Shown here: positions 1,025 to 41,855 of the stretch, one piece after another
How the letters are laid out: every line of letters begins with the position of its first letter
Position numbering within the stretch: the stretch's first letter is position 1
Source: Desulfuromonadales bacterium
GTDB lineage: Bacteria > Desulfobacterota > Desulfuromonadia > Desulfuromonadales > JACZKF01
NCBI GenBank assembly: GCA_050485365.1
Contig: JBJHBH010000003.1
Span: 4,127 to 68,126 of the forward strand
DNA length: 64,000 nt
Direction of reading: 5' to 3'
Made by a program: the position numbers and the translations under genes
The notes under the pieces: model-generated
Databases searched by the model: none
The model's input: only the letters and a program-made list of their open reading frames with translations
Told to the model about the DNA's origin: nothing

Positions 1025-2170
1025 TTACGGCACCCTCCGCTGCCCTTTGGCCGTGTGGCAGGCGAAACACCCCTTTCCTTCGGCATCGCCGGCGTCGCCG
1101 GACACCATTCTGCGGAAATCGAAACGCAGCATGCCATCATACGGGCCTGCATGGGCCAGATGGCATGAGAGACACATGACCAGATCCTGGCCCGGGAAGA
1201 CCTGATCGCTGGGCTCGTCATAGACCCAGGGTCTGGCCACCGGCGCGGTCACCTCGTAGAAGATGTATTCGGCGTATTCTCCCCGATCGGGAAGGACGAA
1301 ATCAGAGGGGTGCCTCAGGAAAGCCAATGTGACGGGGAGTCGTTGGGTATGAAAGTCACCGTGGCAGGTCATGCAGAAACCGCTCATGCTGTTCCGCGGA
1401 GTGTCTATATAAGAATAGGGAGTCGCATTGGTGGAACCGTAATGGCAGGTCGAACAGTGTTGATCGTCGGAAGGACGGTGAGGGGCTCCGAAATATTCGT
1501 TGTGAATCATGGGGGTGACATTCTGCCACCGGTCGGGATAGGGATAGGGGTTTTCGAGCCCACGCACCCCCATTAGAAAGCGGAAGCTGTTGGCGACCAT
1601 ATCGGCCACCTTCAAGGCTCCGTCTTCATTGGCGTGATGAGCGCCGATGATGGCACTCATCCCGACACGATGAACCAGTCTCCCCTCACTGTCCTCCATC
1701 AATTGGTTTCTTAGCCCGTGACAGCCGCTCGCGCCGGCACAGGTGAGCCTGTTCTTGAAATAGATGGGGTTTTCCCCATGCACGAAGCCGGGGGGGAAAA
1801 TGAGGACATCGTCTCCACCGGGGAATATGTCGATGACGTCGTGCCCTTTTCGGCTCCCCGGCACGCCGACGCCCAGCTTGGCACCGGAGATGTAAGCGAA
1901 ATTCCCGCCGGCCAGGTCCCCCCGGCTGTCGGTGTGATACACCTGAGGGACCTGAGTTCCCCCAGGCATGATCACAATTCGCTCGTCTATTCCCAACGCA
2001 TGACAGGTGACACAGTCGACCCCCCACAGATACCCGGAAGAATCTTCTATGGCGCTGTCGGTGTGGCAATCGATGCAGTTATCCCCGATCTGAGCCAGAG
2101 CAACGTGAGAAAGAAGAAAGAACCATGCCGCGGCGACAGCACACAAACTCCATTTCACCGTCTTTTGCAT
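1025..2170 (-). CDS. OmcS-family multiheme c-type cytochrome, divergent paralog
   Basis: Signal peptide, six CXXCH motifs (CIDCH, CVTCH, CSTCH, CMTCH, CLSCH, CFACH) and one CX5CH (CAGASGCH). It shares blocks with the other three paralogs and with OmcS as I remember it: SRKGHDVID, FLRHPSD, MCLSCHLAHAGPYDGMLRF and a C-terminal CFACHTAKG. SD GGAGGA lies 4 nt before the ATG. Confidence 0.8.
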   Translation of the reverse strand: MQKTVKWSLCAVAAAWFFLLSHVALAQIGDNCIDCHTDSAIEDSSGYLWGVDCVTCHALGIDERIVIMPGGTQVPQVYHTDSRGDLAGGNFAYISGAKLGVGVPGSRKGHDVIDIFPGGDDVLIFPPGFVHGENPIYFKNRLTCAGASGCHGLRNQLMEDSEGRLVHRVGMSAIIGAHHANEDGALKVADMVANSFRFLMGVRGLENPYPYPDRWQNVTPMIHNEYFGAPHRPSDDQHCSTCHYGSTNATPYSYIDTPRNSMSGFCMTCHGDFHTQRLPVTLAFLRHPSDFVLPDRGEYAEYIFYEVTAPVARPWVYDEPSDQVFPGQDLVMCLSCHLAHAGPYDGMLRFDFRRMVSGDAGDAEGKGCFACHTAKGQRRVP

Positions 2171-2173
2171 CAG

Positions 2174-2295
2174 ATCCTCCGGGGAAAATGTCCTTTTCTC
2201 CGGGAACCCGGCCGTCCGCCTACGCGCAAGCTTCGACGGACCCGTCGGCTTTGTGCCCCCACCTTACGATGGGTTTACCTTTTCGGAGGATGACT
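2174..2295 (-). promoter_or_regulatory. Candidate GEMM-I (c-di-GMP-I / cGAMP class) riboswitch in the 5' UTR of the OmcS-type gene
   Basis: Minus-strand RNA reads AUCCUCCGAAAAGGUAAACC-CAUC-GUAA-GGUG-GGGGCACAAAGCC...GGCGGACGGCCGGGUUCCCGGAG. This matches GEMM-I hallmarks: GGYAAACC, a P1 hairpin capped by a GNRA loop, ACAAAGCC and GCCGGGUUxCC. The 5' strand AUCCUCCG (2291..2284) is exactly complementary to the SD region CGGAGGAU (2181..2174). Confidence 0.55.
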
Positions 2296-5247: not shown

Positions 5248-5259
5248 TACATTGAATTC

Positions 5260-14418: not shown

Positions 14419-15510
14419 TCAATCCTTCGTCGTATGACAAACCGCACAGCCGTTGAAGGCGGGCTGCCCCGTATGCGGATCGTTCCCCGGCCACGAGCGA
14501 TATCCCCATCGCATCATGGCCGGATAGGGCGAGCCGTGGGGCCGATGGCACGAAACACACGCGACCAGATCGGATCCTCGATTGATATTGGAAAAATTCG
14601 CGTCTTCTCCGGTCACATTCTGGCGCGCCACAGGGACCATGGGGTTGTAGGTGGAGAATTCGGTGAATTCCCCGGCATCCGGTATCGAGAAATCGACGGG
14701 GTGACGGATCCATGCGGCGTTGGCCGTCGTTTCGCTGTGAAACCGTCCATGGCAGCCGGCGCATTTTTGGTTGATGGAGCCGGTTTCGAGATAGCTCGAA
14801 AAAGATCCGGCCTTCCCCTGATAGACGTTATGCTTGTTGGGGTGGGGATTTTGTTCCCAATCCGGGTCCTCGATCCCACTTACCCCTTCCGGTGGCGGCA
14901 CAGGTCCTCCGTCCCGCTGCATCACCGATCCCAGGAACCGGTACCACCCCTCTTCTCTTCCCGCGACGGCGCTGTTGCCGTCGGCATGATGGTGCGGGAC
15001 GTGGCAGCCGTTACAGCCGCTCTGTGCCGTCGCCAACGTTCCGTGACAACTCGTGCAGTCCTCGGCGCGGGCGGCCCCTCCGGGTGCCCACGAAAACCTG
15101 GAATCATGGCTGGCGATGCCGTGAACATTGTGGCCGAACTGATCCCCCTGGAGGACCCAGTGAAAGTTCCCCCCCGCCAGAGCCGAAGTGCTCGATCCGT
15201 CGGGGGGGTATGTCGGTTCGGTCAGGTTGAAAACGATGGGGACCCGCGAATCCCCCAGCGGGACGATCGTCTCCGGACCTGCATGGCTGTGACATCCGAC
15301 GCAGTCGGTCTTGAGCAGTTTGCCAAAGGCCTCGTTCCGGGAGACCCTCTGCCCGGTGCTGTCGAGGGAGAAAGCGACCACCCTCCCCTGCTCGCTGTTG
15401 TGCATCGTATGGCAATCGGAGCACAGCCCCTGAACCGCCCCGTCGCAAAGGATGGGCGTGACCGCGGTCGCGGCGAGTAGGCCCATGGCTATCCAATTGC
15501 GAAGGTGCAT
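14419..15510 (-). CDS. OmcS-family multiheme cytochrome, 7 CXXCH
   Basis: Start MHLRNWIAMGLLAATAV (15510). Motifs are CSDCHTMHNSE, CVGCH, CTSCH, CNGCH, CAGCH, CVSCHRPHGSPYPAMMRW and a C-terminal CAVCHTTKD. Also IRHPVDF. Collinear with the other paralogs. Confidence 0.8.
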   Translation of the reverse strand: MHLRNWIAMGLLAATAVTPILCDGAVQGLCSDCHTMHNSEQGRVVAFSLDSTGQRVSRNEAFGKLLKTDCVGCHSHAGPETIVPLGDSRVPIVFNLTEPTYPPDGSSTSALAGGNFHWVLQGDQFGHNVHGIASHDSRFSWAPGGAARAEDCTSCHGTLATAQSGCNGCHVPHHHADGNSAVAGREEGWYRFLGSVMQRDGGPVPPPEGVSGIEDPDWEQNPHPNKHNVYQGKAGSFSSYLETGSINQKCAGCHGRFHSETTANAAWIRHPVDFSIPDAGEFTEFSTYNPMVPVARQNVTGEDANFSNINRGSDLVACVSCHRPHGSPYPAMMRWGYRSWPGNDPHTGQPAFNGCAVCHTTKD

Positions 15511-17881: not shown

Positions 17882-19827
17882 CTCGCCCTCCCTTCATGAC
17901 ACGCGGCGCAGTTGCCGGGGGCAAAGGGCCCGTGGCTCACCGGATAGAGCAGATTCTTCTCCGGCCCGCCGTGGGGGTCGTGGCACGACACGCACATGTC
18001 GGGCGCCGGCTTCATCCCCTGGTGCGCCTTGTCGAAGCGCGACGAGCCCGTGTCGTGACACCCAGCGCAAAGCGAGCCGATGCTCTCCACGGTCAGCGAC
18101 GCGAAATTCGATCCGTGGGCGCCGTGACAGGTGGTGCAGTCTTCGGCCGCCGGGGGGTGCATCGCCCCGTCGCGCCAGTACTTCGCCGTGTCGGCGTGAC
18201 AGCCGAGGCACAGAGCGGGCTGCGCTCTGTTGAGATATCCCGCATGGGGGGAGCCGTGGCTGCTGTGGCAGGCGCTGCACTCCATCTTGGCCACCGGCTC
18301 ATGCTGGAACTTGTAACGACCGACCTCTTGCCGAGTGTCGGAATGACAGGAGAGGCAGAGCCCTCCGGGCTGCGACTTGACGAGTTTGCCGTAATCGGCG
18401 CCGTGAGGTGCGTGGCAGGTCAGGCAGTCGCCGTCGGCAAAGGGCTGATGGGCCGTCTTTTCCTTCATGGCGCTCCCCATCCCCGGGTGGCAGGTAAGGC
18501 AGAGCGCCCCTTTGGCAGCCTGCGTCTTCAGAAGACCGCGGCGATCTCCGCCGTGGGGGGTGTGGCATGAGGAACACTCCCCTCTGCCGAAAGGTCTGTG
18601 CAGACTGAACAAGCCCATTTCACCCTGCGTCTGACGGTGGCAAGAGAAGCAGAGCGTCGATTCCGCCTGCGTCAGCAGCTTGCCTCGGTTCGATTCGTGG
18701 GAGGCGTGGCAGTCGAAACAACGCCCCTCTTTGGCGGGGGGATGCGCCCGCCGCGTATCGGAGTAGGTCCTGCGATCGTGACAGGTGAAGCAAAGCGCAG
18801 GGGTATCGGCCTTGAGAAGGGCCTGGTTTTCGCTCCTGTGTCCGCTGTGGCAGGTCATGCAGTCGCCGTCGCGGACGGGCTGGTGCACGCTGCGCATCCG
18901 GCTCCCAGGCAGGCCGTAGCTGTGGCAGTCGAGGCAGACCCGGTTCGGTGAATCGACCAGCATGGCGGTGTGATCGCTGGCATGCACGGCGTGGCACGAC
19001 GCGCAGTCGCCCTCCATGACCGGCATATGCTGCGCCCGCTGCGGAACATCGAAATGGCAGGTGAGACAGATCCCCCCTTCGGCCTGCTGAACTTTGATGG
19101 CGGAGCCCTCAACCTGATGACAGTCGTTGCAGCTTCCGCTCGCCACGGGGTCGTGAACCACCGCCTTGAGGAGCCCCGCCTGGTTGGAGCTATGATGCGA
19201 GTGGCAGTCTGCGCAGTTGGTCGCAACCGGGTAGTTCTGGTGGGCAGCGCCGAATTGTGCCGAATCGGTCGCATGGCAGGAGGCGCACAGCTCGTCCTTT
19301 CCCATGCTCAACAAGCCCGGATGATCGGACATGTGCGCGTCGTGGCAGGTCGCGCACCCCTGGGCGACGGGCGCGTGAACATTGCGTCGCGCAAATGCCT
19401 CGCGCTCATGGCACGCGAAACAGGCATTGGGGCCATCGGCCGTGAGAAGGTTCTTGAACGGGGAATTGTGCGGTTCATGGCAGGTGCTGCATTTCCCCTT
19501 GTTCACCGGTTCGTGCACCGACTTCTTGCTTCCGGCCTGCCTGAAGTCCGTATGGCAAGGCAGGCAGAGGAAAGGTTGTTCCTGCCGCGTCAGGAGCCCG
19601 CCGACCAGGCCATGGGGGAGATGGCAGGCTTCGCAGTTCCTCTCCCGAACCGGGGCGTGCACAACGCCTTGCTGATAATTCGTCGCCGTATCGACATGAC
19701 ATTCTGCGCAGGTGCGGCGAACCTCCCGGGTCGGTCCCTGGGATGAGGGCGCGCAACTCGCAACCAGCGCCGCGATGCCCAGAACACTCAGGCATCCCAG
19801 CAAAAACCTCATCGATCTTCCTCTCAT
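17878..19827 (-). CDS. Giant multiheme c-type cytochrome, 26 CXXCH, probable lipoprotein
   Basis: I take the start at MRGRSMRFLLGCLSVLGIAALVASC (19827), with lipobox LVASC. I counted 26 CXXCH motifs in about 650 aa. TGATG overlap with the upstream stop at 19825-19829. Confidence 0.85.
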   Translation of the reverse strand: MRGRSMRFLLGCLSVLGIAALVASCAPSSQGPTREVRRTCAECHVDTATNYQQGVVHAPVRERNCEACHLPHGLVGGLLTRQEQPFLCLPCHTDFRQAGSKKSVHEPVNKGKCSTCHEPHNSPFKNLLTADGPNACFACHEREAFARRNVHAPVAQGCATCHDAHMSDHPGLLSMGKDELCASCHATDSAQFGAAHQNYPVATNCADCHSHHSSNQAGLLKAVVHDPVASGSCNDCHQVEGSAIKVQQAEGGICLTCHFDVPQRAQHMPVMEGDCASCHAVHASDHTAMLVDSPNRVCLDCHSYGLPGSRMRSVHQPVRDGDCMTCHSGHRSENQALLKADTPALCFTCHDRRTYSDTRRAHPPAKEGRCFDCHASHESNRGKLLTQAESTLCFSCHRQTQGEMGLFSLHRPFGRGECSSCHTPHGGDRRGLLKTQAAKGALCLTCHPGMGSAMKEKTAHQPFADGDCLTCHAPHGADYGKLVKSQPGGLCLSCHSDTRQEVGRYKFQHEPVAKMECSACHSSHGSPHAGYLNRAQPALCLGCHADTAKYWRDGAMHPPAAEDCTTCHGAHGSNFASLTVESIGSLCAGCHDTGSSRFDKAHQGMKPAPDMCVSCHDPHGGPEKNLLYPVSHGPFAPGNCAACHEGRAR

Positions 19828-21452
19828 CAGACTCCTCCAAGCTCCCTTTTCACAGACTGCCACCTACGATCATGCACCTCGATCTTCGAGCGAGACTTGA
19901 GCAGATCGAGATATTCCCTGCGCTTCTGTTCCGTCTTTTCCTGCACGAGTCGAGAACGGATGGTATTTGAAACACGTGCAAGGGGGAGGGGGGATTCGGG
20001 GGTGCGGGAAAGCAGATGCACGATGACCCGGCTCCCCTGCGCGGTGAAGGGCTGGCTCGTATCCCCCACGGCGAGCCTGTCGATAGCCGCCCGAACGTCG
20101 GGGTCGAGATGGCTGACCGGCACCTCCTCGGGGCGAATGTTCCTGCCGAAGTGTTCTCTGACCGCTGCGGGAAACTCCTTGCGCGTGGCGACATCGGCCC
20201 AGACCCTGTCGATGGGCCCTTGGGTGTCGTCGATGATGTAGAACCTGACCAGCGCCGGCTGAGTGAAGCGGGCGATGTTTTCCTCGTAGTGCCTTTGGAT
20301 CTCTTCTTCGGTGACGTCGATTTCAGCGGCGAAGAGGCGTCTTTCGACGGCACCGGTCAACCGATGACGCACGTTGAACTCGTACTCCCACTTGAAGGGC
20401 TCCTTCTCCTCGTAACGGCGATCGAGCGACTCCCAGTTCGTCAGACTCTGGGCGACGATTCCGTCGACCACCCGGGCCTTCGTTTCCCGGGCCTTCTCTT
20501 CATCGAAGGCCGCGTGGGCGGCGTCGGGGCGTTGCCCCATATCGCGCCGGGCGACCTCGACGAACTCCCGCTCCGTCACATTCTGCCGGTTGGTGGAGAT
20601 CACCACCGCGTCGGTCAAGGCCTCGTCGGGGGCCATCAGATCGATGGCGGCGATGCGCTCTTCGTCGACTTTCACCTCGTATTTGCGGCGAAGATCGGCC
20701 AGAAGCTGCAGCGTCAGGGCATTTTCCTGCTCTTTCCAGAGCTCTCTGCGAATCTGTTGCCGAGTCATGTGGAAGTCCGCCTGGTCCGCTCCCTCCATCG
20801 CCTTCAGATGGTAGAGGAGCAGCCCCCCCTTGTGTTCGCTCGGCTCGACGACATCGCCCACCTTGAGGTTTCGGAAGATCTCCACCCACCCCTCATCGAT
20901 GCCGACGGGGCGCACCCAGTTTTCGTTTCGGGTAACGGGGCCTCCCTCCTCGGGATCGCGGGCGATCAGCGTCTCGACATCCAACGCCCCCGTGCTGAGC
21001 TCCTGCCAGGCCGCCATAGCCTGATCCTCACTGCTGAAATGAAGTCGCTCGATCAGCCACCTGGGGGAATACGCCTTTTCATAGCGGGCCCACAGATCGG
21101 CATCGGTGATCTTGATACGGCCGTCGATGGCGTCCCCCTTGAGCAGCAGCAGGGCTCTCGAGGTCAGAAAGACCCTCGTCTGGCGCTGAAAGCCGGGATC
21201 GGTGTCGAGTTGCATCCGCTCACCTTCCCGGGCCAGAAGGAGCCATTCGATATAGGAATCGGGCCTTTTCGGCACCTCGAGCCCTTCATCGTTCCAGAAT
21301 TTCCACCATCGCTTGAAATCGTCGGTGGTGTATCTCGTCCCGTCGATGGTGACCAGGGTGTCGTCGCTGCTGAACAACCAAGCCGAAACCGGAGAAACCG
21401 AAACCAAGGAGGTGCAGGCCATTAGCATTAGAATCGAGAGGATACGTCGCAT
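19827..21452 (-). CDS. Periplasmic SurA/PpiD-like chaperone (PpiC-type PPIase-like)
   Basis: Signal peptide MRRILSILMLMACTSLVSVSPVSA. The N-terminal layout is SurA-like (VTIDGTRYTTDDFKRWW). Two parvulin-like segments follow: KVGDVVEPSEHKGGLLLYHLK and VGDTSQPFTAQGSRVIVHLL. The family call is by eye only. Confidence 0.5.
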   Translation of the reverse strand: MRRILSILMLMACTSLVSVSPVSAWLFSSDDTLVTIDGTRYTTDDFKRWWKFWNDEGLEVPKRPDSYIEWLLLAREGERMQLDTDPGFQRQTRVFLTSRALLLLKGDAIDGRIKITDADLWARYEKAYSPRWLIERLHFSSEDQAMAAWQELSTGALDVETLIARDPEEGGPVTRNENWVRPVGIDEGWVEIFRNLKVGDVVEPSEHKGGLLLYHLKAMEGADQADFHMTRQQIRRELWKEQENALTLQLLADLRRKYEVKVDEERIAAIDLMAPDEALTDAVVISTNRQNVTEREFVEVARRDMGQRPDAAHAAFDEEKARETKARVVDGIVAQSLTNWESLDRRYEEKEPFKWEYEFNVRHRLTGAVERRLFAAEIDVTEEEIQRHYEENIARFTQPALVRFYIIDDTQGPIDRVWADVATRKEFPAAVREHFGRNIRPEEVPVSHLDPDVRAAIDRLAVGDTSQPFTAQGSRVIVHLLSRTPESPLPLARVSNTIRSRLVQEKTEQKRREYLDLLKSRSKIEVHDRRWQSVKRELGGV

Positions 21453-23825: not shown

Positions 23826-24425
23826 TCATCTGATCGTCGCCAGCATTCTGCTCACGAGAGTCAGTGTGACCTCGAAGGAGTTCTTCGGCGTCGTCCCGAA
23901 GAGCCGGTCCATCAGCGAGTAGCCGCTCCCCCGCCCGCTCGACTGCCACAGGACCATCCCCGTCTCGGTGTCGACGAGACGCAACGTCAGGGAGATTTCG
24001 GGGTAGACGGCCCCCCCGGTGCGGGCGCCCGCCTCCTGCTCGACGGAGCCGAGGATGAAGGCCTGGGTTCCGAGGCGCTGCCCCAGACGGCGCATGGTCG
24101 GTCCGTCCATGGGCGCACCCGCCTCGATCGCTTCGGCCCGCAGCGTGCTGTCGACCCGCCCCTTGTCCACCACGTCGAACAGGCCCGATGCGAGGAGTTG
24201 GGTCATGGTGATCTCGCGGGTGCGCTGAGCGGCGCCGGCCCCGCCGCCGAGGTTCTCGAAGGGGAGAACGGCCACCGTCTGGATGTAGGAGAGATTGACT
24301 TCATCCCGCATGAAAGACTTAGTCTGATTGCGCCCGCTGCATGCGGAAAGAGAAATCGACAAGAAGACGAAAATCAGCAGGAGTGCGACAATTTTCTTCT
24401 GTTTCATCTCGTAGAAGTCCTTCAT
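23826..24425 (-). CDS. Lipoprotein with an LpoB/DUF799 (GNA1162)/PelC-like fold signature
   Basis: Lipobox LSLSAC. Motifs are TVAVLPFENLGG, LGTQAFILGSV and SLTLRLVDTETGMVLW. These are the same three blocks seen in 21428-22153 and in the N-terminus of 22143-23654. Confidence 0.55.
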   Translation of the reverse strand: MKDFYEMKQKKIVALLLIFVFLSISLSACSGRNQTKSFMRDEVNLSYIQTVAVLPFENLGGGAGAAQRTREITMTQLLASGLFDVVDKGRVDSTLRAEAIEAGAPMDGPTMRRLGQRLGTQAFILGSVEQEAGARTGGAVYPEISLTLRLVDTETGMVLWQSSGRGSGYSLMDRLFGTTPKNSFEVTLTLVSRMLATIR

Positions 24426-24577: not shown

Positions 24578-26683
24578 CTAAAGCCTCATCGCCAAAGAAA
24601 CCTGGAAGTTATAACTGTTCATCTCGGCGAGCGTGTAGTTGACCCGGCTCTGCATGGAGAAGGTCTGGCTGATGGACCAACTTCCATCGAGTCCGAAGCG
24701 GTTGGAGGTTTCTCGCCCCTGCGTGTGGCTGTATCGGAAATTCGCCCTCGTCTTGTGGGTGCGCAGCAATACCATGCTCATGTTGAAGGCGAGCGTATCC
24801 GGGGTGTCGGGCCCCGTCCAGCGGCGGGTGCCGGTCAGACGCATGGAGAGGAGATCCGACGGGCGATACCCGAAGCTCAGCGTCGAGTCTGAGCTCGAGT
24901 CCGTGGCGGTATCGGTCTCGGTCTGCCGGTAATTCGTCGCCAGATCCGCCGTCAGTTTGGGGTTGATGCGGGCGTTGAAGTTGATTCGGCTGCTGAAGGT
25001 GTCGATGTCGACGGCCTCACCGTCGTCGCGAAACCGGGTGCTCGTCACGTAGGACGCATTGAGCGAGGCGGTGAGGTCCGGATAGATGCGCGCCGTGGAG
25101 AAGAGGCTGTAGGTGTCGCTGGTGGCGGTTTTCTGCTCTCCGACGAAGCGCTCGGACTTTGTGGCGCCGACGGTGACGTTTAGGGTCGGCAGGGGAAAGG
25201 TCGCCACGATCAGAGAATACGAGCGGGCGAGCGTCTCCGGCGCGCCGGTCGAATTCAGGCGGGTTTCGCTGTACCCGAGCGAGGGCGAGACCGCTCGGTG
25301 GGGCGCCCATCGAAGGCCGCCGCTCAGAGAGCGGCGGGTCGATTCGGTGCTCAAATCGCCGGACGTGCTGTCCGACCTCTCGTACGTCACGCTGGAGGAG
25401 GCCGCCAGCGTTCGGGTGAGTTGAAGACGCATATTGGCCGTGGTGAGATGGCTCGTCCGGCGGCTCCCACCGTCGGCGTCGGTAAAAAAACTGATGACCT
25501 CCAGTTCGGTGACGTGCAGGGGGACACCGGAGTCGTTCGTCACCACGACCTTGACTTCCCGCGCGAAACGGCCCACGGGGACTTCGAACCGGCTTCGCTG
25601 CTCGTCGTACAGCGCAGGGAGATCCTCCGCCGCCAGTTCCCACGAATCGTCGAGAATACTGCGGGTGTAAAGGTTCCATCGGAGGGCTTCGACCTGAGCG
25701 GGGGCCAGAGGCGCGAAGGGGTCGTGATAGAGGAGGAATGCATCGATCTGTTCGCTCAAATCGAAGCGGATGCCGACATGCCCCCTTTCGAGAGGCTGAA
25801 TAGAGAGGGCCCTGCCGAACTCCCCTTCCCGATCGTTGTTCTGCAGAAGGGGATTGATCGTCAGCTGCACGAGCGCGGGGTCGGGCTCCTGCGTCGGATC
25901 GGAGGTCGCCGACGATGGCTCCCCCAAATCGAGCCGCCGCCGGAAGACGCCTTCTTCCGGAATCACGGCCGTGAAGTCCGATTCCGAATACTGAAACTGC
26001 TGCGAGAGTCGTACGCTGAGGCGGTTTCGCCAGAAGTTGCCGCCGGTTTCGGCCCGCACGAAGTGAGAATCCGACTCGCTTCGGCTCAGCTCGATTCTGT
26101 CTTCGCTTTCGTTGTGGCTGTAGGCGTAGAAGAATTGGGCCGCCAGCAGGTCCCAGTCGAAACCGAAGCCGTAGCGTGACGAGTGCGTGTCGAGGGTGTC
26201 GGAATCGCGGCTCGTCTCGACCGCTTCGCCGTAACTGAGCCAAAGGTTGGGCCAGAAGATGCGCTCCCAGTTGCTCCCCAAAGAAGCGTCCCACGAATAG
26301 GAAGTGAGACCCGGCCCCGACGAGCTGCGGGTCTCCGAGGCGGTGCCGAGAAGCCCCGCCCGGAAGATGTCGTTTGTCAGATTGAGATTGGCGGAAGGGA
26401 CGATCTGCTCGGACGATCTCCATCCGGTGCCGGATTCGCTTTGGGTCCGGGTGTAGCTGAGATTGAAGCCCGCCGAAATGGCATGGGTCGGCTGCCACGT
26501 TACCCCGGTGCCTGCGCCGAGACTGTAACGCTGCTGAAATGAGCGCCGCGTCTCGATGTTGTCCCCTCCCGACTCCCGATACTGCCAGAAGGCGCCGAAG
26601 TCGACGGCGAAGGCGGGAGCGGCGCCCCAGACAAAAAAAACCAGCAACAGGAGAGACAGTCTTTTGCCGACAAATAAAAGCAT
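24578..26683 (-). CDS. Outer-membrane beta-barrel protein (~700 aa) with a central non-barrel insert
   Basis: I take the start at MLLFVGKRLSLLLLVFFVWGAAPAFA (26683). Both ends show alternating hydrophobic/polar strands rich in Y/F/W, S/T and R/D, for example RYGFGFDWDLLAAQFFYAYSH and NFRYSHTQGRETSNRFGLDGSWSI. Residues ~270-400 (..HVTELEVISF) look like a jelly-roll/discoidin-type insert. Confidence 0.55.
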   Translation of the reverse strand: MLLFVGKRLSLLLLVFFVWGAAPAFAVDFGAFWQYRESGGDNIETRRSFQQRYSLGAGTGVTWQPTHAISAGFNLSYTRTQSESGTGWRSSEQIVPSANLNLTNDIFRAGLLGTASETRSSSGPGLTSYSWDASLGSNWERIFWPNLWLSYGEAVETSRDSDTLDTHSSRYGFGFDWDLLAAQFFYAYSHNESEDRIELSRSESDSHFVRAETGGNFWRNRLSVRLSQQFQYSESDFTAVIPEEGVFRRRLDLGEPSSATSDPTQEPDPALVQLTINPLLQNNDREGEFGRALSIQPLERGHVGIRFDLSEQIDAFLLYHDPFAPLAPAQVEALRWNLYTRSILDDSWELAAEDLPALYDEQRSRFEVPVGRFAREVKVVVTNDSGVPLHVTELEVISFFTDADGGSRRTSHLTTANMRLQLTRTLAASSSVTYERSDSTSGDLSTESTRRSLSGGLRWAPHRAVSPSLGYSETRLNSTGAPETLARSYSLIVATFPLPTLNVTVGATKSERFVGEQKTATSDTYSLFSTARIYPDLTASLNASYVTSTRFRDDGEAVDIDTFSSRINFNARINPKLTADLATNYRQTETDTATDSSSDSTLSFGYRPSDLLSMRLTGTRRWTGPDTPDTLAFNMSMVLLRTHKTRANFRYSHTQGRETSNRFGLDGSWSISQTFSMQSRVNYTLAEMNSYNFQVSLAMRL

Positions 26684-26810
26684 TGGCAACCGCTGATCTC
26701 CCGTAGCTGAAAACCGATCCAACCCCCAACCAAAGATTAATACAATTATATTAACTTATACTTAATTTCTCCGCAAGCCTTTTTGCACTTCCTTCCGAAG
26801 AAATGAAATT

Positions 26811-26839
26811 CGGCAGTCTACGCAGGTTGCAGACTGCCG
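26811..26839 (-). terminator. Terminator-like hairpin downstream of the second tandem OmcS-type gene
   Basis: CGGCAGTCT, an 11-nt loop, then AGACTGCCG. On the minus strand it is followed by AAUUUCAUUUCUU. Confidence 0.5.
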
Positions 26840-27008
26840 ATAAAAATCCAAAGCGACCCCCCCGACCCTGCGGCCCCCCCCTGTGAAACAGGAGGGGCAA
26901 AGCAAGGCAATGTCCCCCCTATGCAATAGGGGGGAAGGCCTACGCGGCCAGGGGGGTCAGATTTCGCCTTCAGCCTTTCGCCTTTTACCCATCGCCTCGC
27001 GCCTGCCC

Positions 27009-28343
27009 TTAAGGCATCGCCCCGCCCTTCGCCGCATGGCACGCAAGGCACCCTTCGCCGGCATGGGTCTGGTTGCCGGTGCCGGCGCGCATGCCGCTCG
27101 TCAGGGCGGCGTAGTCGAAGCGCAGCAGCCCGTCATAAGGGGCGGCGTGGGCCATGTGGCAGGAGAGACACATGACCATGTCGCGCCCGGGAACCACGTC
27201 GGCGCTCGCGGTCATTCCGGCGTTGAAGAAGTCGCTCGGACGGGCGACGGGGGCGGTGATGGAGTATTCGGTGTAGGCGGCGTACTCGCCGAGGTCCGGG
27301 ATGACGTAGTCCGAAGGGTGACGCAGAAAGGCGCCGCTCGTCCCGTTGGTGTCGCCCGAAGAGTGGAAGGTGCCGTGGCAGGTGATGCAGAAGCCGGTCA
27401 TCGTCGCGTTCGGCACATAGAGGCGCGACGTCTGCGACGACGTCCCCAGATGGCACCGGTTGCAGGTGTTGGTCGTGCCGTAGTCGGTGGCCTTGATCAG
27501 GTCGTTGATGTACCCGCCGTGATATTCGTTGTGGCTGCTGCTGTCGACATTTCGCCAGCGGTCCTGCTCGTTGCCGTAGCCTCTCAGCCCCCGGATGAAG
27601 CGGTAGCTGTGGGCGAGGGGGTTGTCGTAAAAATTCGGGTGCCCACCGGGGCCGCCGTCGGCCTTGAAGCCGTCGTAATTGTCGTGATGAGCGCCGCGAA
27701 AGTAGGTGACACTCGACGCGGTGGGGCCGTCGTATCCGCTGAAGGCGGAGAGGCCGGTGCGGTAGGTCGGCGGCGCGCCGGTAAAGGGGTCCCCTTCGTC
27801 GAGTTGCTGGCCGCGGATGCCGTGGCACCCCATGCTGCCGGCGCAGGTGAATTTGCCGACGTCGAAGGTGAAGCCACTCGCCTCGTGGGGCCTGAAGCCG
27901 GGGGGGTTGTTCAGGACATCGTCCCTCGGGACGAGATCGACGACGTTGTGCCCCTTGCGGCTACCCGGCTCCCCCTGCCCTTCCTTGGTGCCGGAGATGT
28001 AGGCGAAGTTGCCGCCCGCCAGGTCGTCGTCGAAGTTGTGATAGACCTGCGGCACCCTGCTTCCGCCAGCCATCTGCCAGACCGAGTCGTCGGCGAGGGG
28101 GCTCGCGTGGCAGGCGATGCAGTCGTAGCGCAGCAGGTTGCGGTTCGTCTCCCCCGTGACGGTAGTGCTGCGCCCCTGCAGCGCCACCGGCCTCCCTTCT
28201 TCGCTGTTGTGCATGGTATGGCAGTCGGCGCACTGGCCGACAAGACCGGCCCCGGCTGCCGTCGCGACGAGGCCGAAGAGCCACACACCCGTAAGGGCAC
28301 CGATGAGGGACATAATGCGGGACTTCTTCAATTCATGCTCCAT
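27009..28343 (-). CDS. OmcS-family multiheme cytochrome (downstream gene of the tandem pair)
   Basis: Motifs are GQCADCHTMHNSEEGRPVA, CIACH, VPQVYH, DLAGGNFAYISG, SRKGHNVVD, CAGSMGCH (CX5CH), CNRCH, CITCHGTFHSS, FLRHPSDYVIPD, MCLSCHMAHAAPYDGLLRF and CLACHAAKG. The start is uncertain: MEHELKK at 28343 or MSLIGAL at 28313. The track start 28409 has no RBS. Confidence 0.8.
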   Translation of the reverse strand: MEHELKKSRIMSLIGALTGVWLFGLVATAAGAGLVGQCADCHTMHNSEEGRPVALQGRSTTVTGETNRNLLRYDCIACHASPLADDSVWQMAGGSRVPQVYHNFDDDLAGGNFAYISGTKEGQGEPGSRKGHNVVDLVPRDDVLNNPPGFRPHEASGFTFDVGKFTCAGSMGCHGIRGQQLDEGDPFTGAPPTYRTGLSAFSGYDGPTASSVTYFRGAHHDNYDGFKADGGPGGHPNFYDNPLAHSYRFIRGLRGYGNEQDRWRNVDSSSHNEYHGGYINDLIKATDYGTTNTCNRCHLGTSSQTSRLYVPNATMTGFCITCHGTFHSSGDTNGTSGAFLRHPSDYVIPDLGEYAAYTEYSITAPVARPSDFFNAGMTASADVVPGRDMVMCLSCHMAHAAPYDGLLRFDYAALTSGMRAGTGNQTHAGEGCLACHAAKGGAMP

Positions 28344-28418
28344 ACCGTATGAGAAACGATCATTCACATTTGGATGTTCAACCTGTGAGAATGCCTGATG
28401 CGCTCCCATTTAAAGTAG

Positions 28419-28452
28419 GCCGGTACCCGAAGCGCACTTCGGGTACCGGCCG
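28419..28452 (-). terminator. Perfect 15-bp hairpin between the two tandem OmcS-type genes (attenuator, stabiliser or partial terminator)
   Basis: GGCCGGTACCCGAAG-CGCA-CTTCGGGTACCGGCC, 35 nt after the stop at 28487. On the minus strand it is followed only by a weak U-tract (UACUUUAAAU). Confidence 0.55.
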
Positions 28453-28486
28453 GATGTTCATGTCAATTCAAACCTGGCAGCCTCAT

Positions 28487-29773
28487 TTAATTCTTGGGCA
28501 CCCCTTTGGTGGTATGGCAGGCGAGGCAGCCGGAGACGCCTTCGGTGTTGCCGGCGACCATGTCGGCATAATTGAAGCGCAGCATGCCGTCATGGGGGGT
28601 TGCGTGGGCAGCGTGGCACGAAAGACACATGACCATGTCGGTGCCGGGACGAACGACGCTGGCCGCGGGGAGGTCGCTCAAGTCGGGACGGGCGACCGGC
28701 GCCGTGATGTCGTACACGGTGTACGCGGCATACTCGCTGGCGTCAGGAATGACGTAGTCGGAGGGGTGGCGCAGGAAGGCGCCGCTCACGCCGTTGTTCC
28801 CGCCGTCGCCCGAGGAGTGGAAGTTGCCGTGGCAGGTGGCGCAGAAGTTGCTCATCGACTGGTTGGCGATCTTCAGGGTCGAGTCGAGGGTCATGCGGGC
28901 GCTGATGCCACTGGTGTCACTGCCGGGCACATGGCAGCTGTTGCAGCTCGCAATCCGGAACTCCGAGTCGGCGCCGAAGTACTCGTTGTGGCTGGTGCTG
29001 TCGACGTTCTGCCAGCGGGCCTCGGTGTTGCCGATCCCCTTGAGGCCGGCGATGAAGCGATAGCTGTCAGCGATATACTGCCCGTCATGGACACCGGCGG
29101 TGATCTGCTCGGGATCCTTGAGGCCGTCGTAGTTTTGGTGGTGCGCGCCGCTGACGGCGGGGATGCCTCTGCGCTTGACAGTGATGTTTTGACCCTCATT
29201 ATCTGGGTCCGGAACAGAGCTCAGCAACTGCGAACGGGTGCCGTGACAGCCGGCGGCGCCGGCGCAGGTGAAGTTGGCGAACTGCAGGCCCATGTAGTTG
29301 GCATGGGTATTGCCCATGGCTGCACCCGTTTCGGGATCGACATAGCCCCCGCGGAAGTCGCCGGGGGGAACGGTGAGACCGCCGAAGTCGGGGTCGCCCG
29401 CGCCGAAGATGTCGACGACGTTGTGCCCCTTGCGGTTCCCTTCCAGAATGTGCATGAAGTTACCTGCGGCGAGGTCAGTCGTGCCGCTGTGATAGACCTG
29501 GGGGACCTTGCTGCCGCCCTCGAGGGTGACGATGTGCTCGCTTCCCCCCTGAGCGTGGCAGGAGATGCAGTCCATCCGCAGCAGGTTCTGGACGGGTGCT
29601 ACTGAGGTGTCGCTGGATGCCGTCTCCGAGTTCCAGACCTGTGCGACGGGGCGCCCTTCTTCGCTGTTGTGCATGGTGTGGCAGTCGGCGCATTGGCCGA
29701 TGAGGCCCTGAGCACTGGCCATTGCCGGCAAGGCGAAAAGGCCTAGGGCGGCGATTGCAATCATTTTCTTCAT
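28487..29773 (-). CDS. OmcS-family multiheme cytochrome (first gene of the tandem pair)
   Basis: Start MKKMIAIAALGLFALPAMASA, with GGAGG 8 nt upstream. Motifs are CADCHTMHNSEEGRPVA, CISCH, CAGAAGCH (CX5CH), CNSCH, CATCHGNFHSS, FLRHPSDYVIPD, MCLSCHAAHATPHDGMLRF and CLACHTTKG. Confidence 0.85.
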   Translation of the reverse strand: MKKMIAIAALGLFALPAMASAQGLIGQCADCHTMHNSEEGRPVAQVWNSETASSDTSVAPVQNLLRMDCISCHAQGGSEHIVTLEGGSKVPQVYHSGTTDLAAGNFMHILEGNRKGHNVVDIFGAGDPDFGGLTVPPGDFRGGYVDPETGAAMGNTHANYMGLQFANFTCAGAAGCHGTRSQLLSSVPDPDNEGQNITVKRRGIPAVSGAHHQNYDGLKDPEQITAGVHDGQYIADSYRFIAGLKGIGNTEARWQNVDSTSHNEYFGADSEFRIASCNSCHVPGSDTSGISARMTLDSTLKIANQSMSNFCATCHGNFHSSGDGGNNGVSGAFLRHPSDYVIPDASEYAAYTVYDITAPVARPDLSDLPAASVVRPGTDMVMCLSCHAAHATPHDGMLRFNYADMVAGNTEGVSGCLACHTTKGVPKN

Positions 29774-30017
29774 TTCGACTTCCTCCATTCATTTCCATTT
29801 GGTTGTGGCAGCTCAAAAACCCTCCTCCATTTTCCCACCTGATACATGGGCCGGCACTCCCGACGATCCGGGAGGGGAGAACCCGGTCAAGCCTCCTTCT
29901 TTTCTTTCGTCTCTACTCACCTCCTTTCCGGCGTTTTTTGCCTTAGCGATACCTGCCGACACATTGCAGCAATCCGTATCCCCCCAGAAATGAAGTGTGC
30001 ATTTGCGCAGCGTCCTA

Positions 30018-30046
30018 ATTATTAGCAATTCATTATTTATTGTCAA
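30018..30046 (-). promoter_or_regulatory. Candidate sigma70 promoter of the tandem OmcS-type operon
   Basis: On the minus strand, TTGACA (30046..30041), a 17-nt spacer, then AATAAT (30023..30018), inside a very AT-rich stretch. This implies a 5' UTR of about 235 nt. Confidence 0.45.
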
Positions 30047-30137
30047 TTATAAAAAACAAATTGTTGCTGAATTTTAAAAAATAATTGAAATCTCAACGGT
30101 TTAACACCAGAAAGAGCCTAGAGCACTTTCCCCTCAT

Positions 30138-30177
30138 CCGGCCTTCGGCCACCCTCTCCCTTATGGAGAGAGGAAGC
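30138..30177. repeat. Double-hairpin GC-rich repeat
   Basis: CCGGCCTTCGGCCACCCTCTCCCTTATGGAGAGAGGAAGC, nearly identical to 32544-32583. Confidence 0.6.
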
Positions 30178-30290
30178 TGTTGGGGCGAGATCGAGCACAT
30201 TCGAAGAGTGGAATGGGGTGGATATGGCGGTGGGTTGTTAAGAGCGGGGATATAACAGGCGAGCAGTGTACGGGGTCAGAGAAGCCATTG

Positions 30291-30328
30291 AGGGAAACGG
30301 AGGCGCGACCTCGCGCCTCCGTTTCCCT
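30291..30328 (-). terminator. Perfect 17-bp hairpin just after the stop of the cytochrome-Ig gene
   Basis: AGGGAAACGGAGGCGCG-ACCT-CGCGCCTCCGTTTCCCT, 9 nt from the stop at 30337. Confidence 0.6.
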
Positions 30329-30336
30329 CTGGGAAG

Positions 30337-31829: not shown

Positions 31830-32026
31830 TTAGAACACGCGTCGCCAGCCTGTCAATATGGCGGATTGCCACCTGTTGAAAAGCACACTACTGCTGACCA
31901 AAAGGTGCCTGGCGCCCCGACGCAGGCAAAGGCGTTCGCGATCGACCTGAGCGATGTTGCTGGAAATGGTTGAATTTTTAAGATATCTTGAGGGTGTTGC
32001 GCCTATGATTCATTGGAGGAGAGTCA

Positions 32027-32194
32027 ATGGACAGATTTCTCGACTGGCTCAGGCAAGCGGAGAACGATCTGGCGTGGGCCAGGCACTCTCTTGCCGGCGG
32101 CTTCTACGCCCAGACATGCTTCGCCTCGCAGCAGGCCGCCGAAAAGGTCTTCACCATCCTCAAGAAGAGGCTTGAACATGCCGAGAATTCTTGA
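32027..32194 (+). pseudogene. Truncated HEPN-domain ORF (55 codons)
   Basis: Hand translation gives MDRFLDWLRQAENDLAWARHSLAGGFYAQTCFASQQAAEKVFTILKKRLEHAENS*. This is the N-terminal half of a HEPN domain and lacks the Rx4-6H motif. GGAGGA lies 6 nt upstream. It overlaps the MNT start by 17 nt and is below the ORF-track length cut-off. Confidence 0.45.
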
Positions 32195-39073: not shown

Positions 39074-41794
<2,721 letters not shown>

Positions 41795-41813: not shown

Positions 41814-41855
41814 AAAGCGAAGGCGAGCCGGATGCGTGCGGCTCGCCTTCGCTTT
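41814..41855 (+). terminator. Terminator hairpin after the P-type ATPase gene
   Basis: AAAGCGAAGGCGAGCCG-GATGCGTG-CGGCTCGCCTTCGCTTT: a perfect 17-bp stem ending in TTT. Confidence 0.65.

What the first reader, a model, noticed from the sequence alone, without database searches (positions are those of the whole stretch)
27009..29773. Tandem OmcS paralogs keep the CHTMH motif and are split by a perfect 15-bp hairpin
Both genes open their mature sequence with GQCADCHTMHNSEEGRPVA. As I recall the OmcS filament structure, mature OmcS begins FHSGGVAECEGCHTMH. The second His of that CHTMH, His16 in mature numbering, ligates a heme of the neighbouring protomer. Conservation here, and in 14419-15510 (CSDCHTMHNSE), is what a polymerising cytochrome would need.

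The two genes are separated by 143 nt containing GGCCGGTACCCGAAG-CGCA-CTTCGGGTACCGGCC, which has no good U-tract. That fits a stoichiometry-setting attenuator or a 3' stabiliser of the first cistron.
Basis: partly seen in the sequence, partly recalled or inferred. Interest (0 to 1): 0.7.

Follow-up and report, generated by a model that had tools for sequence, protein, structure and literature searches.

The report
OmcS-like cytochrome gene pair with hairpin
Two neighbouring genes encode seven-haem relatives of the Geobacter "nanowire" cytochrome OmcS that keep the histidine OmcS uses to link subunits, and a strong RNA hairpin between them probably makes the first far more abundant than the second; this is a new example of a gene cluster already described in Geobacter and Desulfurivibrio.

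Summary
Two minus-strand genes, A (28487-29773) and B (27009-28343), are 46% identical. Both contain GQCADCHTMHNSEEGRPVA.

Sequence, profile-profile and fold searches hit only OmcS in the PDB. They place the second His of CHTMH on OmcS His16 and CLSCHxAH on the OmcS haem-5 motif.

The proteins are not OmcS orthologues. They carry seven haem motifs, one of them CX5CH. They are orthologues of Desulfurivibrio alkaliphilus DA_402 (A) and DA_403 (B), the published "OmcS-like" sister clade, and they head a syntenic osc-like biogenesis cluster.

The A→hairpin→B layout recurs in four relatives. It mirrors Geobacter omcS-omcT, where the downstream gene is only co-transcribed. In D. alkaliphilus, A-type mRNA exceeds B-type about 34-fold.

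The motif is superfamily-wide, so it is necessary for polymerisation but not diagnostic of it. A fourth paralog (1025-2170) has lost only this His.

Verdict: new member of a known kind. Polymerisation and attenuation are plausible but untested.

The parts
30018..30046 (-). Sigma-70-like promoter candidate (TTGACA-17-AATAAT, 11 of 12 matches), about 245 nt upstream of gene A
   Evidence: This is a consensus match only. No Rfam element lies in the leader.
28487..29773 (-). Gene A: 428-aa secreted heptahaem OmcS-like cytochrome, A-type, orthologue of D. alkaliphilus DA_402
   Evidence: 57% identical to DA_402. AF2 model pLDDT 83.9. Foldseek finds only OmcS 6ef8_A (E 4.5e-6).
29669..29683 (-). Codons for C31-H32-T33-M34-H35 of gene A. 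H35 aligns with OmcS His16, the inter-subunit ligand donor.
   Evidence: Sequence; alignments. H35 is invariant in A1 and A6.
28604..28627 (-). Codons for C383-L-S-C-H387-A-A-H390 of gene A, aligned with the OmcS haem-5 motif CLSCH(332)RAH
   Evidence: Filman 2019 (PMC6584659) states that haem 505 receives one ligand from the neighbouring molecule.
28418..28451 (-). Perfect 15-bp stem with 4-nt loop, 35 nt after the gene A stop and 74 nt before the gene B start. Tail UACUUUAAAU. Proposed leaky terminator and/or 3' decay barrier.
   Evidence: Position-conserved hairpins in L002, L082, L083, L085 and L086. No Rfam family matches it.
27009..28343 (-). Gene B: 444-aa secreted heptahaem OmcS-like cytochrome, B-type, orthologue of D. 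alkaliphilus DA_403. Alternative start at 28313.
   Evidence: (56% identical to P0097 = DA_403). P0272 is the 444-aa product on record.
28209..28223 (-). Codons for CHTMH of gene B
   Evidence: Sequence; alignment.
27147..27170 (-). Codons for CLSCHMAH of gene B (haem-5-type motif)
   Evidence: Sequence; alignment.
26810..26840 (-). Terminator-like hairpin with a U-rich tail (AUUUCAUUUC) downstream of gene B. Probable end of the A-B transcription unit.
   Evidence: It was the only site in 26500-30400 that passed the terminator criteria.
24578..26722 (-). 714-aa protein with no Pfam hit; homologue of the Geobacter OscE-position protein and of the D. alkaliphilus 706-aa protein
   Evidence: 42% identical to DA_706; phmmer E 2.4e-8 to the Geobacter 718-aa protein.
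23826..24425 (-). 199-aa LpoB/CsgG/GNA1162-like lipoprotein (OscF-like)
   Evidence: E 2e-11 to the Geobacter protein; 62% identical to DA_188.
19827..21452 (-). 541-aa PpiC-type prolyl isomerase (OscH-like chaperone position)
   Evidence: 58% identical to the D. alkaliphilus protein.
14419..15510 (-). Third paralog (type C): 363 aa, seven CXXCH motifs, CSDCHTMHNSE, 28% identical to gene A. It sits next to an OscD-like beta-propeller gene (12946-14406).
   Evidence: OscD-like E 3e-14.
1025..2170 (-). Fourth paralog (type D): 381 aa. It keeps all seven haem motifs and CLSCHLAH, but its first motif reads CIDCHTDSA, so the His16 equivalent is lost and the arm is shortened.
2199..2289 (-). GEMM-I (c-di-GMP-I class) riboswitch aptamer directly upstream of the type D gene
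   Evidence: 54.5 bits against a gathering score of 35.

Best explanation
Genes A and B are an old, conserved pair of secreted heptahaem cytochromes of the OmcS superfamily. They belong to the DA_402/DA_403-type 'OmcS-like' sister clade and sit at the head of an osc-like folding and secretion gene cluster.

Both proteins keep the two halves of the OmcS inter-subunit bond: an N-terminal CxxCH-T-M-His donor and the CLSCHxAH haem-5 acceptor. The most likely mechanism is therefore head-to-tail polymerisation into an extracellular haem wire, as in OmcS (inferred).

Transcription probably starts at one promoter upstream of A. The 15-bp GC-rich hairpin with a poor U-tract, 35 nt after the A stop codon, probably acts as a leaky intrinsic terminator and 3'-exonuclease barrier. 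Most transcripts would then end or be stabilised as monocistronic A mRNA. A minority would read through into B, which has no promoter-like site of its own in the 74 nt before its start. The unit ends at the U-tract terminator at 26810-26840.

The net result would be A (major subunit) greatly exceeding B (minor or alternative subunit). The homology, synteny and hairpin are shown. Polymerisation, read-through and the A:B ratio in this organism are inferred.
For: Homology to OmcS:
- phmmer against the PDB hits OmcS as the only multihaem cytochrome and the only significant match (gene A E 6.8e-7, gene B E 2e-3).
- The family profile gives E 1e-12.
- hhalign against a 40-sequence OmcS-clade profile gives probability 99.8%, E 5e-28, over 300 columns. 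It puts H35 on OmcS His16 and CLSCHxAH on haem 5.
- The AF2 model (pLDDT 83.9, pTM 0.86) finds only 6ef8_A by Foldseek (E 4.5e-6, probability 1.00, TM 0.37-0.39).
- The donor His and the acceptor motif are invariant across 50 family members and across 143 superfamily members.

Orthology and context:
- A is 57-59% identical to DA_402 and B is 56% identical to DA_403. DA_402 was identified through its published qPCR primers.
- The next five genes are syntenic with D. alkaliphilus at 42-62% identity.
- The window has homologues of the Geobacter proteins at the OscD, OscE and OscF positions and a PPIase.
- DA_402 is the most induced cytochrome on Fe(III) oxide and was modelled as a filament (PMC12545173).

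Hairpin:
- None of this size is expected by chance.
- The A->hairpin->B arrangement recurs in L002, L082, L083 and L086, and the same hairpin follows the A-type gene in L085.
- In the hand-set alignment, 93% of cells pair and 7 of 15 pairs show changes on both sides.
- 18 of 24 tandem pairs in the superfamily have, after the upstream gene, a hairpin stronger than all 25 shuffles.
- The Geobacter omcS-omcT spacer has a GC hairpin without a U-tract, whereas omcT is followed by a hairpin plus U6. omcS is known to be transcribed alone or with omcT, and omcT only with omcS (PMC1974784 and PMC6520446).
- In D. alkaliphilus the A-type to B-type RPKM values are 51459 against 1526.
- No minus-strand promoter-like site lies between the hairpin and gene B.
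Against: - No filament of this clade has been solved or seen. Only OmcS is known to polymerise among its own paralogs (PMC12977616).
- The motif is present in at least 543 loci, so it cannot discriminate polymerising from non-polymerising members.
- The Foldseek TM-score is below 0.5.
- The identity of His16 as the donor rests on my knowledge of Wang et al. 2019. The papers I could read give only 'one ligand of haem 5 from a neighbouring molecule'.
- The hairpins in relatives were picked because they were the best hairpins, so the covariation count is partly built in.
- Terminators after genes are common in general.
- The promoter scan covers only sigma-70-type sites, so a promoter for gene B cannot be excluded.
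- In D. alkaliphilus the gene order is reversed and A has its own sigma-54-like promoter and riboswitch. The 34:1 ratio there is therefore achieved by a different route.
Confidence: 0.6

Rival explanations
1. A and B are ordinary non-polymerising outer-surface or periplasmic multihaem cytochromes. CHTMHNS is simply a structural signature of the superfamily, and the second His ligates a haem within the same chain or is needed for folding.
For: - The motif occurs in at least 543 loci across Desulfuromonadales, Desulfobulbales, Nitrospirota and other groups.
- DA_403 was predicted to be periplasmic by the authors' localisation tools.
- Seven haems need 14 axial ligands, and there are 16 invariant or near-invariant His residues. 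The His count therefore does not force an inter-subunit bond.
Against: - A clade of 11 type D sequences lost exactly this His and its arm while keeping all seven haem motifs and the other 15 invariant His residues. The His is therefore dispensable for the monomer fold.
- Both partners of the OmcS inter-subunit bond are among the best-conserved blocks between the two clades.
- The genes sit on an osc-like cluster, which has been linked to OmcS nanowire biogenesis.
Confidence: 0.3
2. The hairpin is an efficient terminator that ends an A-only transcript. Gene B is expressed from its own (non-sigma-70) promoter or is nearly silent, so the hairpin insulates the two genes rather than tuning a ratio.
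For: - In D. alkaliphilus a 20-bp U-poor hairpin follows the upstream paralog, and the downstream gene has its own sigma-54-like promoter and riboswitch. U-poor hairpins may therefore terminate well in these taxa.
- A similar 18-bp U-poor hairpin follows the upstream cytochrome gene at 30290-30329, ahead of the gene A promoter-like site.
Against: - Only 74 nt separate the hairpin from the gene B start. They contain no sigma-70-like site and no good TGGCAC-N5-TTGC match.
- In the Geobacter precedent the downstream gene is expressed only by read-through.
Confidence: 0.2
3. The hairpin does not terminate transcription. It acts only after transcription, as an mRNA decay barrier or processing signal that protects the A segment of a full-length A-B transcript. 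The Rhodobacter pufBA intercistronic stem-loop and REP stabilisers work this way (my own knowledge).
For: - The stem is long, perfect and GC-rich, and the U-tract is poor (4 U in the first 8 nt).
- The stem is conserved with changing sequence.
Against: - Tails in relatives are pyrimidine- and U-rich (7 of 10 U in L085 and L086), so some termination is plausible.
- Sequence alone cannot separate this reading from leaky termination, and both give A > B.
Confidence: 0.25
4. The palindrome is a chance feature, a repeated or mobile element, or a DNA operator for a dimeric regulator.
For: It is a perfect 34-nt palindrome and reads the same on both strands.
Against: - No hairpin of this size appeared in 60 shuffles.
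- The arm is not repeated in the window.
- Relatives keep the pairing while the sequence changes. This is the signature of a structure, not of a sequence-specific protein site.
Confidence: 0.03

Closest known systems
D. alkaliphilus DA_402/DA_403 'OmcS-like' cytochromes and their downstream cluster (Nature 2025, PMC12545173)
   Same: - They are orthologues: A is 57-59% identical to DA_402 and B is 56% identical to DA_403.
- Both have seven motifs of type CX2-5CH.
- The same five downstream genes follow: a roughly 710-aa protein, an LpoB-like lipoprotein, a roughly 510-aa protein, a roughly 220-aa protein and a PPIase.
- The A-type greatly exceeds the B-type in expression there.
   Different: - The gene order is swapped. 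The window has A then B; D. alkaliphilus has B then A.
- D. alkaliphilus has a 470-nt spacer with a sigma-54-like promoter and a GEMM-I riboswitch in front of A.
- The window has a 143-nt spacer with only the hairpin, and no riboswitch before A.
G. sulfurreducens omcS-omcT (GSU2504-GSU2503) with the osc cluster GSU2502-2493
   Same: - Tandem paralogs with a U-poor GC hairpin in the spacer and a U-tract terminator after the second gene.
- The upstream gene is transcribed alone or together with the downstream gene, and the downstream gene only by co-transcription.
- The CHTMH donor His and the CLSCHRAH haem-5 motif are shared.
- Homologues of the proteins at the OscD, OscE and OscF positions, a PPIase and NHL proteins lie nearby.
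   Different: - OmcS and OmcT are hexahaem, 62% identical and a recent duplication. A and B are heptahaem (an extra CNxCH, and haem 3 as CX5CH), 46% identical and an old duplication.
- They are only about 25% identical to OmcS.
- The cluster gene order differs.
- Geobacter omcS is preceded by a GEMM-I riboswitch; gene A is not.
Intercistronic stem-loops that set subunit ratios: the Rhodobacter capsulatus pufBA-pufLMX decay terminator, the E. coli papA/fimA major-pilin 3' hairpins, and REP stabilisers (my own knowledge)
   Same: A stable hairpin directly after the gene for the abundant structural subunit. The upstream segment accumulates and the downstream genes are expressed at a lower level.
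   Different: There are no RNA data for this locus, and the sequences are unrelated. Those systems are pigment-protein complexes or pili, not cytochromes.
Canonical Rho-independent terminator
   Same: A GC-rich perfect stem with a short loop, located just after a stop codon.
   Different: The U-tract is poor (UACUUUAA, 4 U in 8) and the site fails the scan criteria.

Membership tests
OmcS superfamily (homology) | Significant sequence or profile similarity to OmcS over most of its length | tested here: met
   phmmer E 6.8e-7. Profile against the PDB E 1e-12, OmcS the only hit below E 0.1. hhalign probability 99.8%, E 5e-28, 300 columns.
OmcS superfamily (homology) | OmcS-like fold | tested here: met
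   AF2 model pLDDT 83.9. Foldseek against the PDB gives 6ef8_A as the only significant hit (E 4.5e-6, probability 1.00), but the TM-score is only 0.37-0.39. A first, shallower model (pLDDT 66.7) found nothing.
OmcS-type polymerising cytochrome | N-terminal CxxCH-x-x-His, whose last His (OmcS His16) ligates haem 5 of the neighbouring subunit | tested here: met
   H35 of A and the equivalent His of B align with His16 by all methods. The residue is invariant. Only its position was tested, not the ligation.
OmcS-type polymerising cytochrome | Haem-5 motif CLSCH followed by xAH, which accepts the neighbour's His | tested here: met
   CLSCHAAH (A) and CLSCHMAH (B) align with OmcS C328-H332-H335.
OmcS-type polymerising cytochrome | Forms extracellular filaments | not testable with these tools
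   This needs cryo-EM or mass spectrometry. No multimer prediction was available. The published AF2 oligomer model exists only for DA_402.
OmcS proper (hexahaem OmcS/OmcT orthologue) | Six CXXCH motifs and close identity to GSU2504 | tested here: not met
   There are seven motifs, namely six CXXCH plus one CX5CH. Identity to OmcS is about 25%. No curated NCBIfam OmcS model is hit.
DA_402-type 'OmcS-like' sister clade | Orthology to DA_402/DA_403 and seven CX2-5CH motifs | tested here: met
   DA_402 equals P0011 by primer mapping and by its coordinates in the supplement.
osc-type (omcS-companion) biogenesis cluster | Beta-propeller (OscD), channel-like proteins OscE/F/G, PPIase OscH and large multihaem/NHL proteins next to the omcS-like genes | tested here: met
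   OscD-like E 3e-14; OscE-like phmmer E 2.4e-8; OscF-like E 2e-11. PPIase, roughly 26-haem cytochrome and NHL proteins by Pfam. The Osc gene names were assigned by position in the Geobacter locus L089, using and my own knowledge. OscG and OscH homology to Geobacter was not tested, because L089 ends before them.
Canonical intrinsic terminator | GC-rich stem-loop followed by a U-tract (at least 5 U in 8) | tested here: not met
   The stem is met (15 bp). The tail UACUUUAA has 4 U, and the site is not called by the scan.
GEMM-I (c-di-GMP/cGAMP) riboswitch-controlled omcS-like gene | GEMM-I aptamer in the 5' leader | tested here: not met
   None lies in 26700-30400, even at E up to 10. The aptamer is present before the window's type D gene, DA_402, Geobacter omcS, and the L083, L085 and L086 A-type genes.

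The most novel reading that the evidence does not exclude
The window encodes a three-part cytochrome filament system built like a pilus.
- A-type would be the major polymerising subunit.
- B-type would be a conserved minor subunit (initiator, adaptor or alternative wire), kept at a few per cent of A by the intercistronic hairpin.
- Type D, which is riboswitch-controlled and keeps the haem-5 acceptor but has lost the donor His and its arm, would be a chain-ending cap or base that can receive a neighbour's His but cannot pass one on.

If so, filament length and polarity would be set genetically by the A:B:D ratio and by a cyclic-dinucleotide signal.
Probability: 0.12. Interest if true: 0.75.

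Novelty: new member of a known kind. Interest (0 to 1): 0.38.

Why it matters
Which OmcS relatives actually form conductive wires is an open problem. A recent comparative study states that only OmcS is known to polymerise and that homology cannot tell wires from non-wires (PMC12977616).

This locus adds a well-defined case for the widespread heptahaem 'OmcS-like' clade, which has been implicated in iron-oxide respiration coupled to sulfide oxidation.
- An old A/B gene pair keeps both halves of the OmcS inter-subunit bond.
- The A->hairpin->B operon design is conserved.
- The same window holds a natural paralog lineage that has lost only the donor histidine. That contrast gives a direct, cheap experimental handle: compare A, B and D for polymerisation, and mutate H35.

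The hairpin itself is ordinary operon engineering. It explains how a major structural subunit could be over-produced relative to its partner.

Tried and rejected
- First AF2 model. It was built from a 50-sequence alignment and was poor (pLDDT 66.7). Foldseek against the PDB returned only noise. A 143-sequence alignment that included the OmcS clade fixed this.
- Pfam and NCBIfam. They give only generic multihaem hits (Paired_CXXCH_1, MtrC/F II-IV, cytochrome c7). No OmcS model is hit.
- The repeat finder. It did not list the 28418-28451 hairpin. I confirmed it by pattern search and by my own scan.
- Global alignment of the window and L002 spacers. It misaligned the hairpins, so I aligned the hairpin segments alone.
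- Sigma-54 promoter search. Nothing convincing lies near gene A or gene B, and there were fewer hits overall than in shuffles.
- Rfam at a permissive threshold over 26700-30400. It returned only chance miRNA-like hits on the hairpins.
- Literature. I could not retrieve Wang et al. 2019 (PMC6720112), Mehta et al. 2005 (PMC1317342) or Shen et al. 2025 (PMC11845295). Searches for 'His16' with OmcS found nothing usable. The residue number therefore rests on my own knowledge plus the PDB chain numbering.
- Exact look-up of P0001. 
- Ideas considered and rejected. A REP or mobile element is unlikely because the arm is not repeated. A protein operator is unlikely because the pairing, not the sequence, is conserved. 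A recent tandem duplication is ruled out by the A/B orthology across genomes.

Full report
**What is there**

On the minus strand of the window lie two multihaem cytochrome genes.
- Gene A runs 29773->28487 (428 aa). GGAGG sits 8 nt before its ATG.
- Gene B runs 28343->27009 (444 aa). This start supplies the positively charged signal-peptide n-region seen in every homologue and is the start of the 444-aa product on record, P0272. An alternative ATG lies at 28313.
- The two proteins are 46% identical.
Mature OmcS likewise starts 8 residues before its first Cys.
- The CHTMH codons are 29669-29683 (A) and 28209-28223 (B).
- The 143-nt spacer contains a perfect 15-bp stem with a 4-nt loop at 28418-28451.

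**Is the hairpin more than chance?**

Yes. The 64-kb window contains only three perfect hairpins with a stem of at least 15 bp and a 3-8 nt loop. Sixty dinucleotide-preserving shuffles contained none. The arm is not a repeated element. As RNA on the coding strand it folds at about -33 kcal/mol. The tail is UACUUUAAAU, so the site fails the U-tract rule of the terminator scan. No Rfam family matches it.

**Relationship to OmcS**

- Against all PDB sequences, OmcS (6ef8/6nef) is the only significant hit. Single sequences give E 6.8e-7 and 2e-3. A 50-sequence family profile gives E 1e-12.
- I rebuilt the OmcS chain from these printed alignments, collected its clade and aligned 40 members.
- Profile-profile comparison with the A/B family gives probability 99.8%, E 5e-28, over 300 columns.
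- In every alignment the second His of CHTMH falls on OmcS His16, counting along the PDB chain printed. CLSCHxAH falls on OmcS C328-H332-H335, the fifth haem motif.
- RKGHN, FH after the fourth motif, and LRHP also align.
- Filman et al. state that 11 of the 12 His ligands come from the same subunit and one, on haem 505, from a neighbouring molecule (PMC6584659). Wang et al. 2022 say the same in general terms (PMC9473688). That the donor is His16 is my recollection of Wang et al. 2019, which I could not open.
- A first AF2 model was too poor to use. A second, from a 143-sequence alignment, reached pLDDT 83.9 and pTM 0.86. Its only significant match in the PDB is OmcS (E 4.5e-6, probability 1.00, TM 0.37-0.39).

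**What they are not**

They are not OmcS orthologues.
- Identity to OmcS is about 25%.
- They carry seven haem motifs: CADCH, CI[SA]CH, CAGxxGCH (a CX5CH, invariant in the family), CN[SR]CH (no OmcS counterpart), C[AI]TCH, CLSCH and CLACH.

This is exactly the published description of D. alkaliphilus DA_402, an 'OmcS-like' cytochrome. Six of its seven CX2-5CH motifs align with OmcS. It is induced more than 100-fold on iron oxide, was modelled by AlphaFold as a filament, and belongs to a sister clade of OmcS (PMC12545173).

- The published DA_402 qPCR primers map inside P0011, and the supplement's coordinates agree.
- A is 57-59% identical to DA_402. B is 56% identical to its neighbour DA_403 (P0097). 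The cross-comparisons are lower, at 47-51%.
- A and B are thus two old orthologous lineages, not a recent duplication.

**Context**

- The next genes downstream are orthologous and syntenic with the D. alkaliphilus cluster at 42-62% identity. They encode a 714-aa protein, a 199-aa LpoB/CsgG-like lipoprotein, a 503-aa protein, a 241-aa protein and a 541-aa PpiC-type isomerase.
- After these come a 661-aa cytochrome with 13 Paired_CXXCH_1 matches in Pfam, more cytochromes, NHL and beta-propeller proteins, and the third paralog; their orthology to D. alkaliphilus was not tested.
- In a Geobacter omcS locus (L089), the proteins at the OscD, OscE and OscF positions have homologues in the window (E 3e-14, phmmer 2.4e-8 and 2e-11).
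- The osc genes have been linked to OmcS folding, secretion and morphology (as summarised in PMC13194489 and PMC12977616).
- This context supports a nanowire-type role more than the motif alone does.

**How diagnostic is CHTMH?**

Not very.
- A genome scan with CHTMHNS[EQ] found at least 543 confirmed relatives in Desulfuromonadales, Desulfobulbales, Nitrospirota and other groups.
- Met34 and His35 are invariant across a 143-sequence superfamily sample and His16 is invariant across the OmcS clade.
- Yet only OmcS is known to polymerise.

A useful internal contrast turned up. A fourth paralog in the window, 1025-2170 (-), 46% identical to DA_403, keeps all seven haem motifs, CLSCHLAH and the other conserved His residues. 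It reads CIDCHTDSA and lacks about 22 residues of the arm between haems 1 and 2.
- It belongs to a lineage of 15 cluster representatives.
- Eleven of them have lost the His and the arm. The three most distant from the query that kept it (P0255-P0257) retain CHTMHNSEQG.
- The His is therefore dispensable for the monomer. That fits an inter-subunit role where it is kept, and it suggests type D is an acceptor-only (capping) or monomeric form. This last point is inference.

**The hairpin in comparison**

- In L002, L082, L083 and L086 the order is the same as here: A-type gene, a 13-17-bp GC-rich hairpin with a short loop and a weak to moderate U/pyrimidine tail, then the B-type gene.
- In L085 the same hairpin follows a lone A-type gene, ahead of the 699-aa gene. 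The hairpin therefore belongs to the A gene rather than to the paralog junction.
- Several stems begin GGCCGG. The interiors differ, with changes on both sides at 7 of 15 pairs and 93% of cells paired, against 26-55% for slid controls. These hairpins were chosen as hairpins, so this shows retention of a structure at a position. It is not independent covariation evidence.
- Across the superfamily, 18 of 24 same-strand tandem pairs have, within 150 nt of the upstream stop, a hairpin more stable than all 25 shuffles.
- In Geobacter, the 110-nt omcS-omcT spacer has a GC hairpin with no U-tract, and omcT is followed by a hairpin plus U6. The window shows the same two-tier pattern: a U-poor hairpin after A and a U-tract terminator at 26810-26840 after B.
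- In D. alkaliphilus the two paralogs are co-regulated, but A-type mRNA exceeds B-type 34-fold (51459 against 1526 RPKM). There the order is B then A, and A has its own sigma-54-like promoter and GEMM-I riboswitch.

**Mechanism proposed**

- Shown: the homology, the conserved donor and acceptor motifs, the synteny with an osc-like cluster, the non-random and position-conserved hairpin, and the absence of a sigma-70-like or sigma-54-like site between the hairpin and gene B.
- Inferred: one promoter (candidate at 30018-30046) drives A. Most transcripts end or are trimmed back to the hairpin, giving stable monocistronic A mRNA. A minority read through into B and stop at 26810-26840. A is then the major subunit of an OmcS-type wire and B a minor or alternative subunit.

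I put about 0.6 on this package. Identity is about 0.95. Polymerisation and the hairpin role are about 0.6 each.

The rivals are:
- non-polymerising cytochromes (0.3);
- a full terminator with gene B separately expressed (0.2);
- a pure decay barrier (0.25, which is a variant of the main idea);
- chance, a mobile element or an operator (0.03).

**Novelty and score**

The pieces are already known. The OmcS-like heptahaem clade and its predicted filament are in Nature 2025. The osc cluster and the omcS/omcT transcription pattern are published. Intercistronic hairpins that set ratios are textbook.

What seems additional is the ancient A/B pairing with a conserved A->hairpin->B design (reversed in Desulfurivibrio), and the donor-His-less type D lineage under riboswitch control.

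I rate the finding as a new member of a known kind, with interest 0.38.

Noticed in passing
window 1025-2170 (-): A fourth OmcS-like paralog (type D, 381 aa) keeps all seven haem motifs and CLSCHLAH but reads CIDCHTDSA, so the His16 equivalent and about 22 residues of the arm are lost. It belongs to a lineage of 15 cluster representatives. Eleven lack the His and three (P0255-P0257) keep CHTMHNSEQG. It may be a filament cap or a monomeric form.
   Followed up: partly
window 2199-2289 (-); also L088 9671-9750, L089 9896-9976, L083 3681-3755, L085 2394-2471, L086 225-304, L090 2044-2121, L091 5920-5997: GEMM-I class (c-di-GMP-I / c-di-GMP-I-GGC) riboswitch aptamers sit directly upstream of OmcS-like genes: type D here and in two relatives, DA_402, three A-type genes, and Geobacter omcS. 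The window's A-B operon has none.
   Followed up: partly
window 30290-30329: An 18-19-bp perfect GC-rich hairpin with no U-tract lies right after the stop of the upstream 458-aa cytochrome/OmpL47-domain gene (30337-31713, -). It has the same style as the A-B hairpin, so U-poor long hairpins may be the usual 3' ends of cytochrome genes here.
   Followed up: partly
window 28487-29773 and 27009-28343, residues C170-C176-H177 of gene A: The third haem motif is CX5CH (FTCAGxxGCHG), invariant in the A/B/D family. OmcS and the window's type C paralog have a plain CXXCH there. In the profile alignment its His lines up with OmcS His147 (CSSCHDPH).
   Followed up: partly
L088 (D. alkaliphilus CP001940.1, 462-479 kb) compared with the window: The order of the A-type and B-type genes is reversed between Desulfurivibrio (B then A) and the window's lineage (A then B), while the downstream cluster is unchanged. 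An exact TGGCAC-N5-TTGC sigma-54-type site (L088, about 9596-9610) precedes DA_402, and a sigma-54 activator and histidine kinase lie upstream.
   Followed up: partly
L084 (groundwater metagenome contig, 35 kb): An A-type OmcS-like gene (55% identical to gene A) sits among genes that look phage-like or mobile (DnaB-type helicase, RNA ligase, Lar-like protein, a tRNA) and is followed by a canonical U-tract terminator. This may be a mobile-element-borne copy.
   Followed up: no
window 2458-7311 (-) and 7577-8968 (+): Between the type D gene and a ResB-like cytochrome c biogenesis gene lie an STT3/PglB-like oligosaccharyltransferase (5260-7311) and a sulfatase/GDPD fusion (2458-5247). Glycosyltransferase genes also flank the Geobacter omcS locus (L089) and the type D loci (L090). 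This hints at glycosylation of surface cytochromes.
   Followed up: no
window 41814-41855: The third long perfect hairpin of the window (17 bp, 8-nt loop) lies just after the P-type ATPase gene (39074-41794, +). It is probably a terminator.
   Followed up: no
window 32013-32528 (+) and L001 39-540: A nucleotidyltransferase/HEPN pair (toxin-antitoxin-like) lies immediately beyond the upstream end of the cytochrome cluster.
   Followed up: no
window 54948-54962 (+): This is the only exact TGGCAC-N5-TTGC (sigma-54-type) match in the window. It is unrelated to the cytochrome genes.
   Followed up: no
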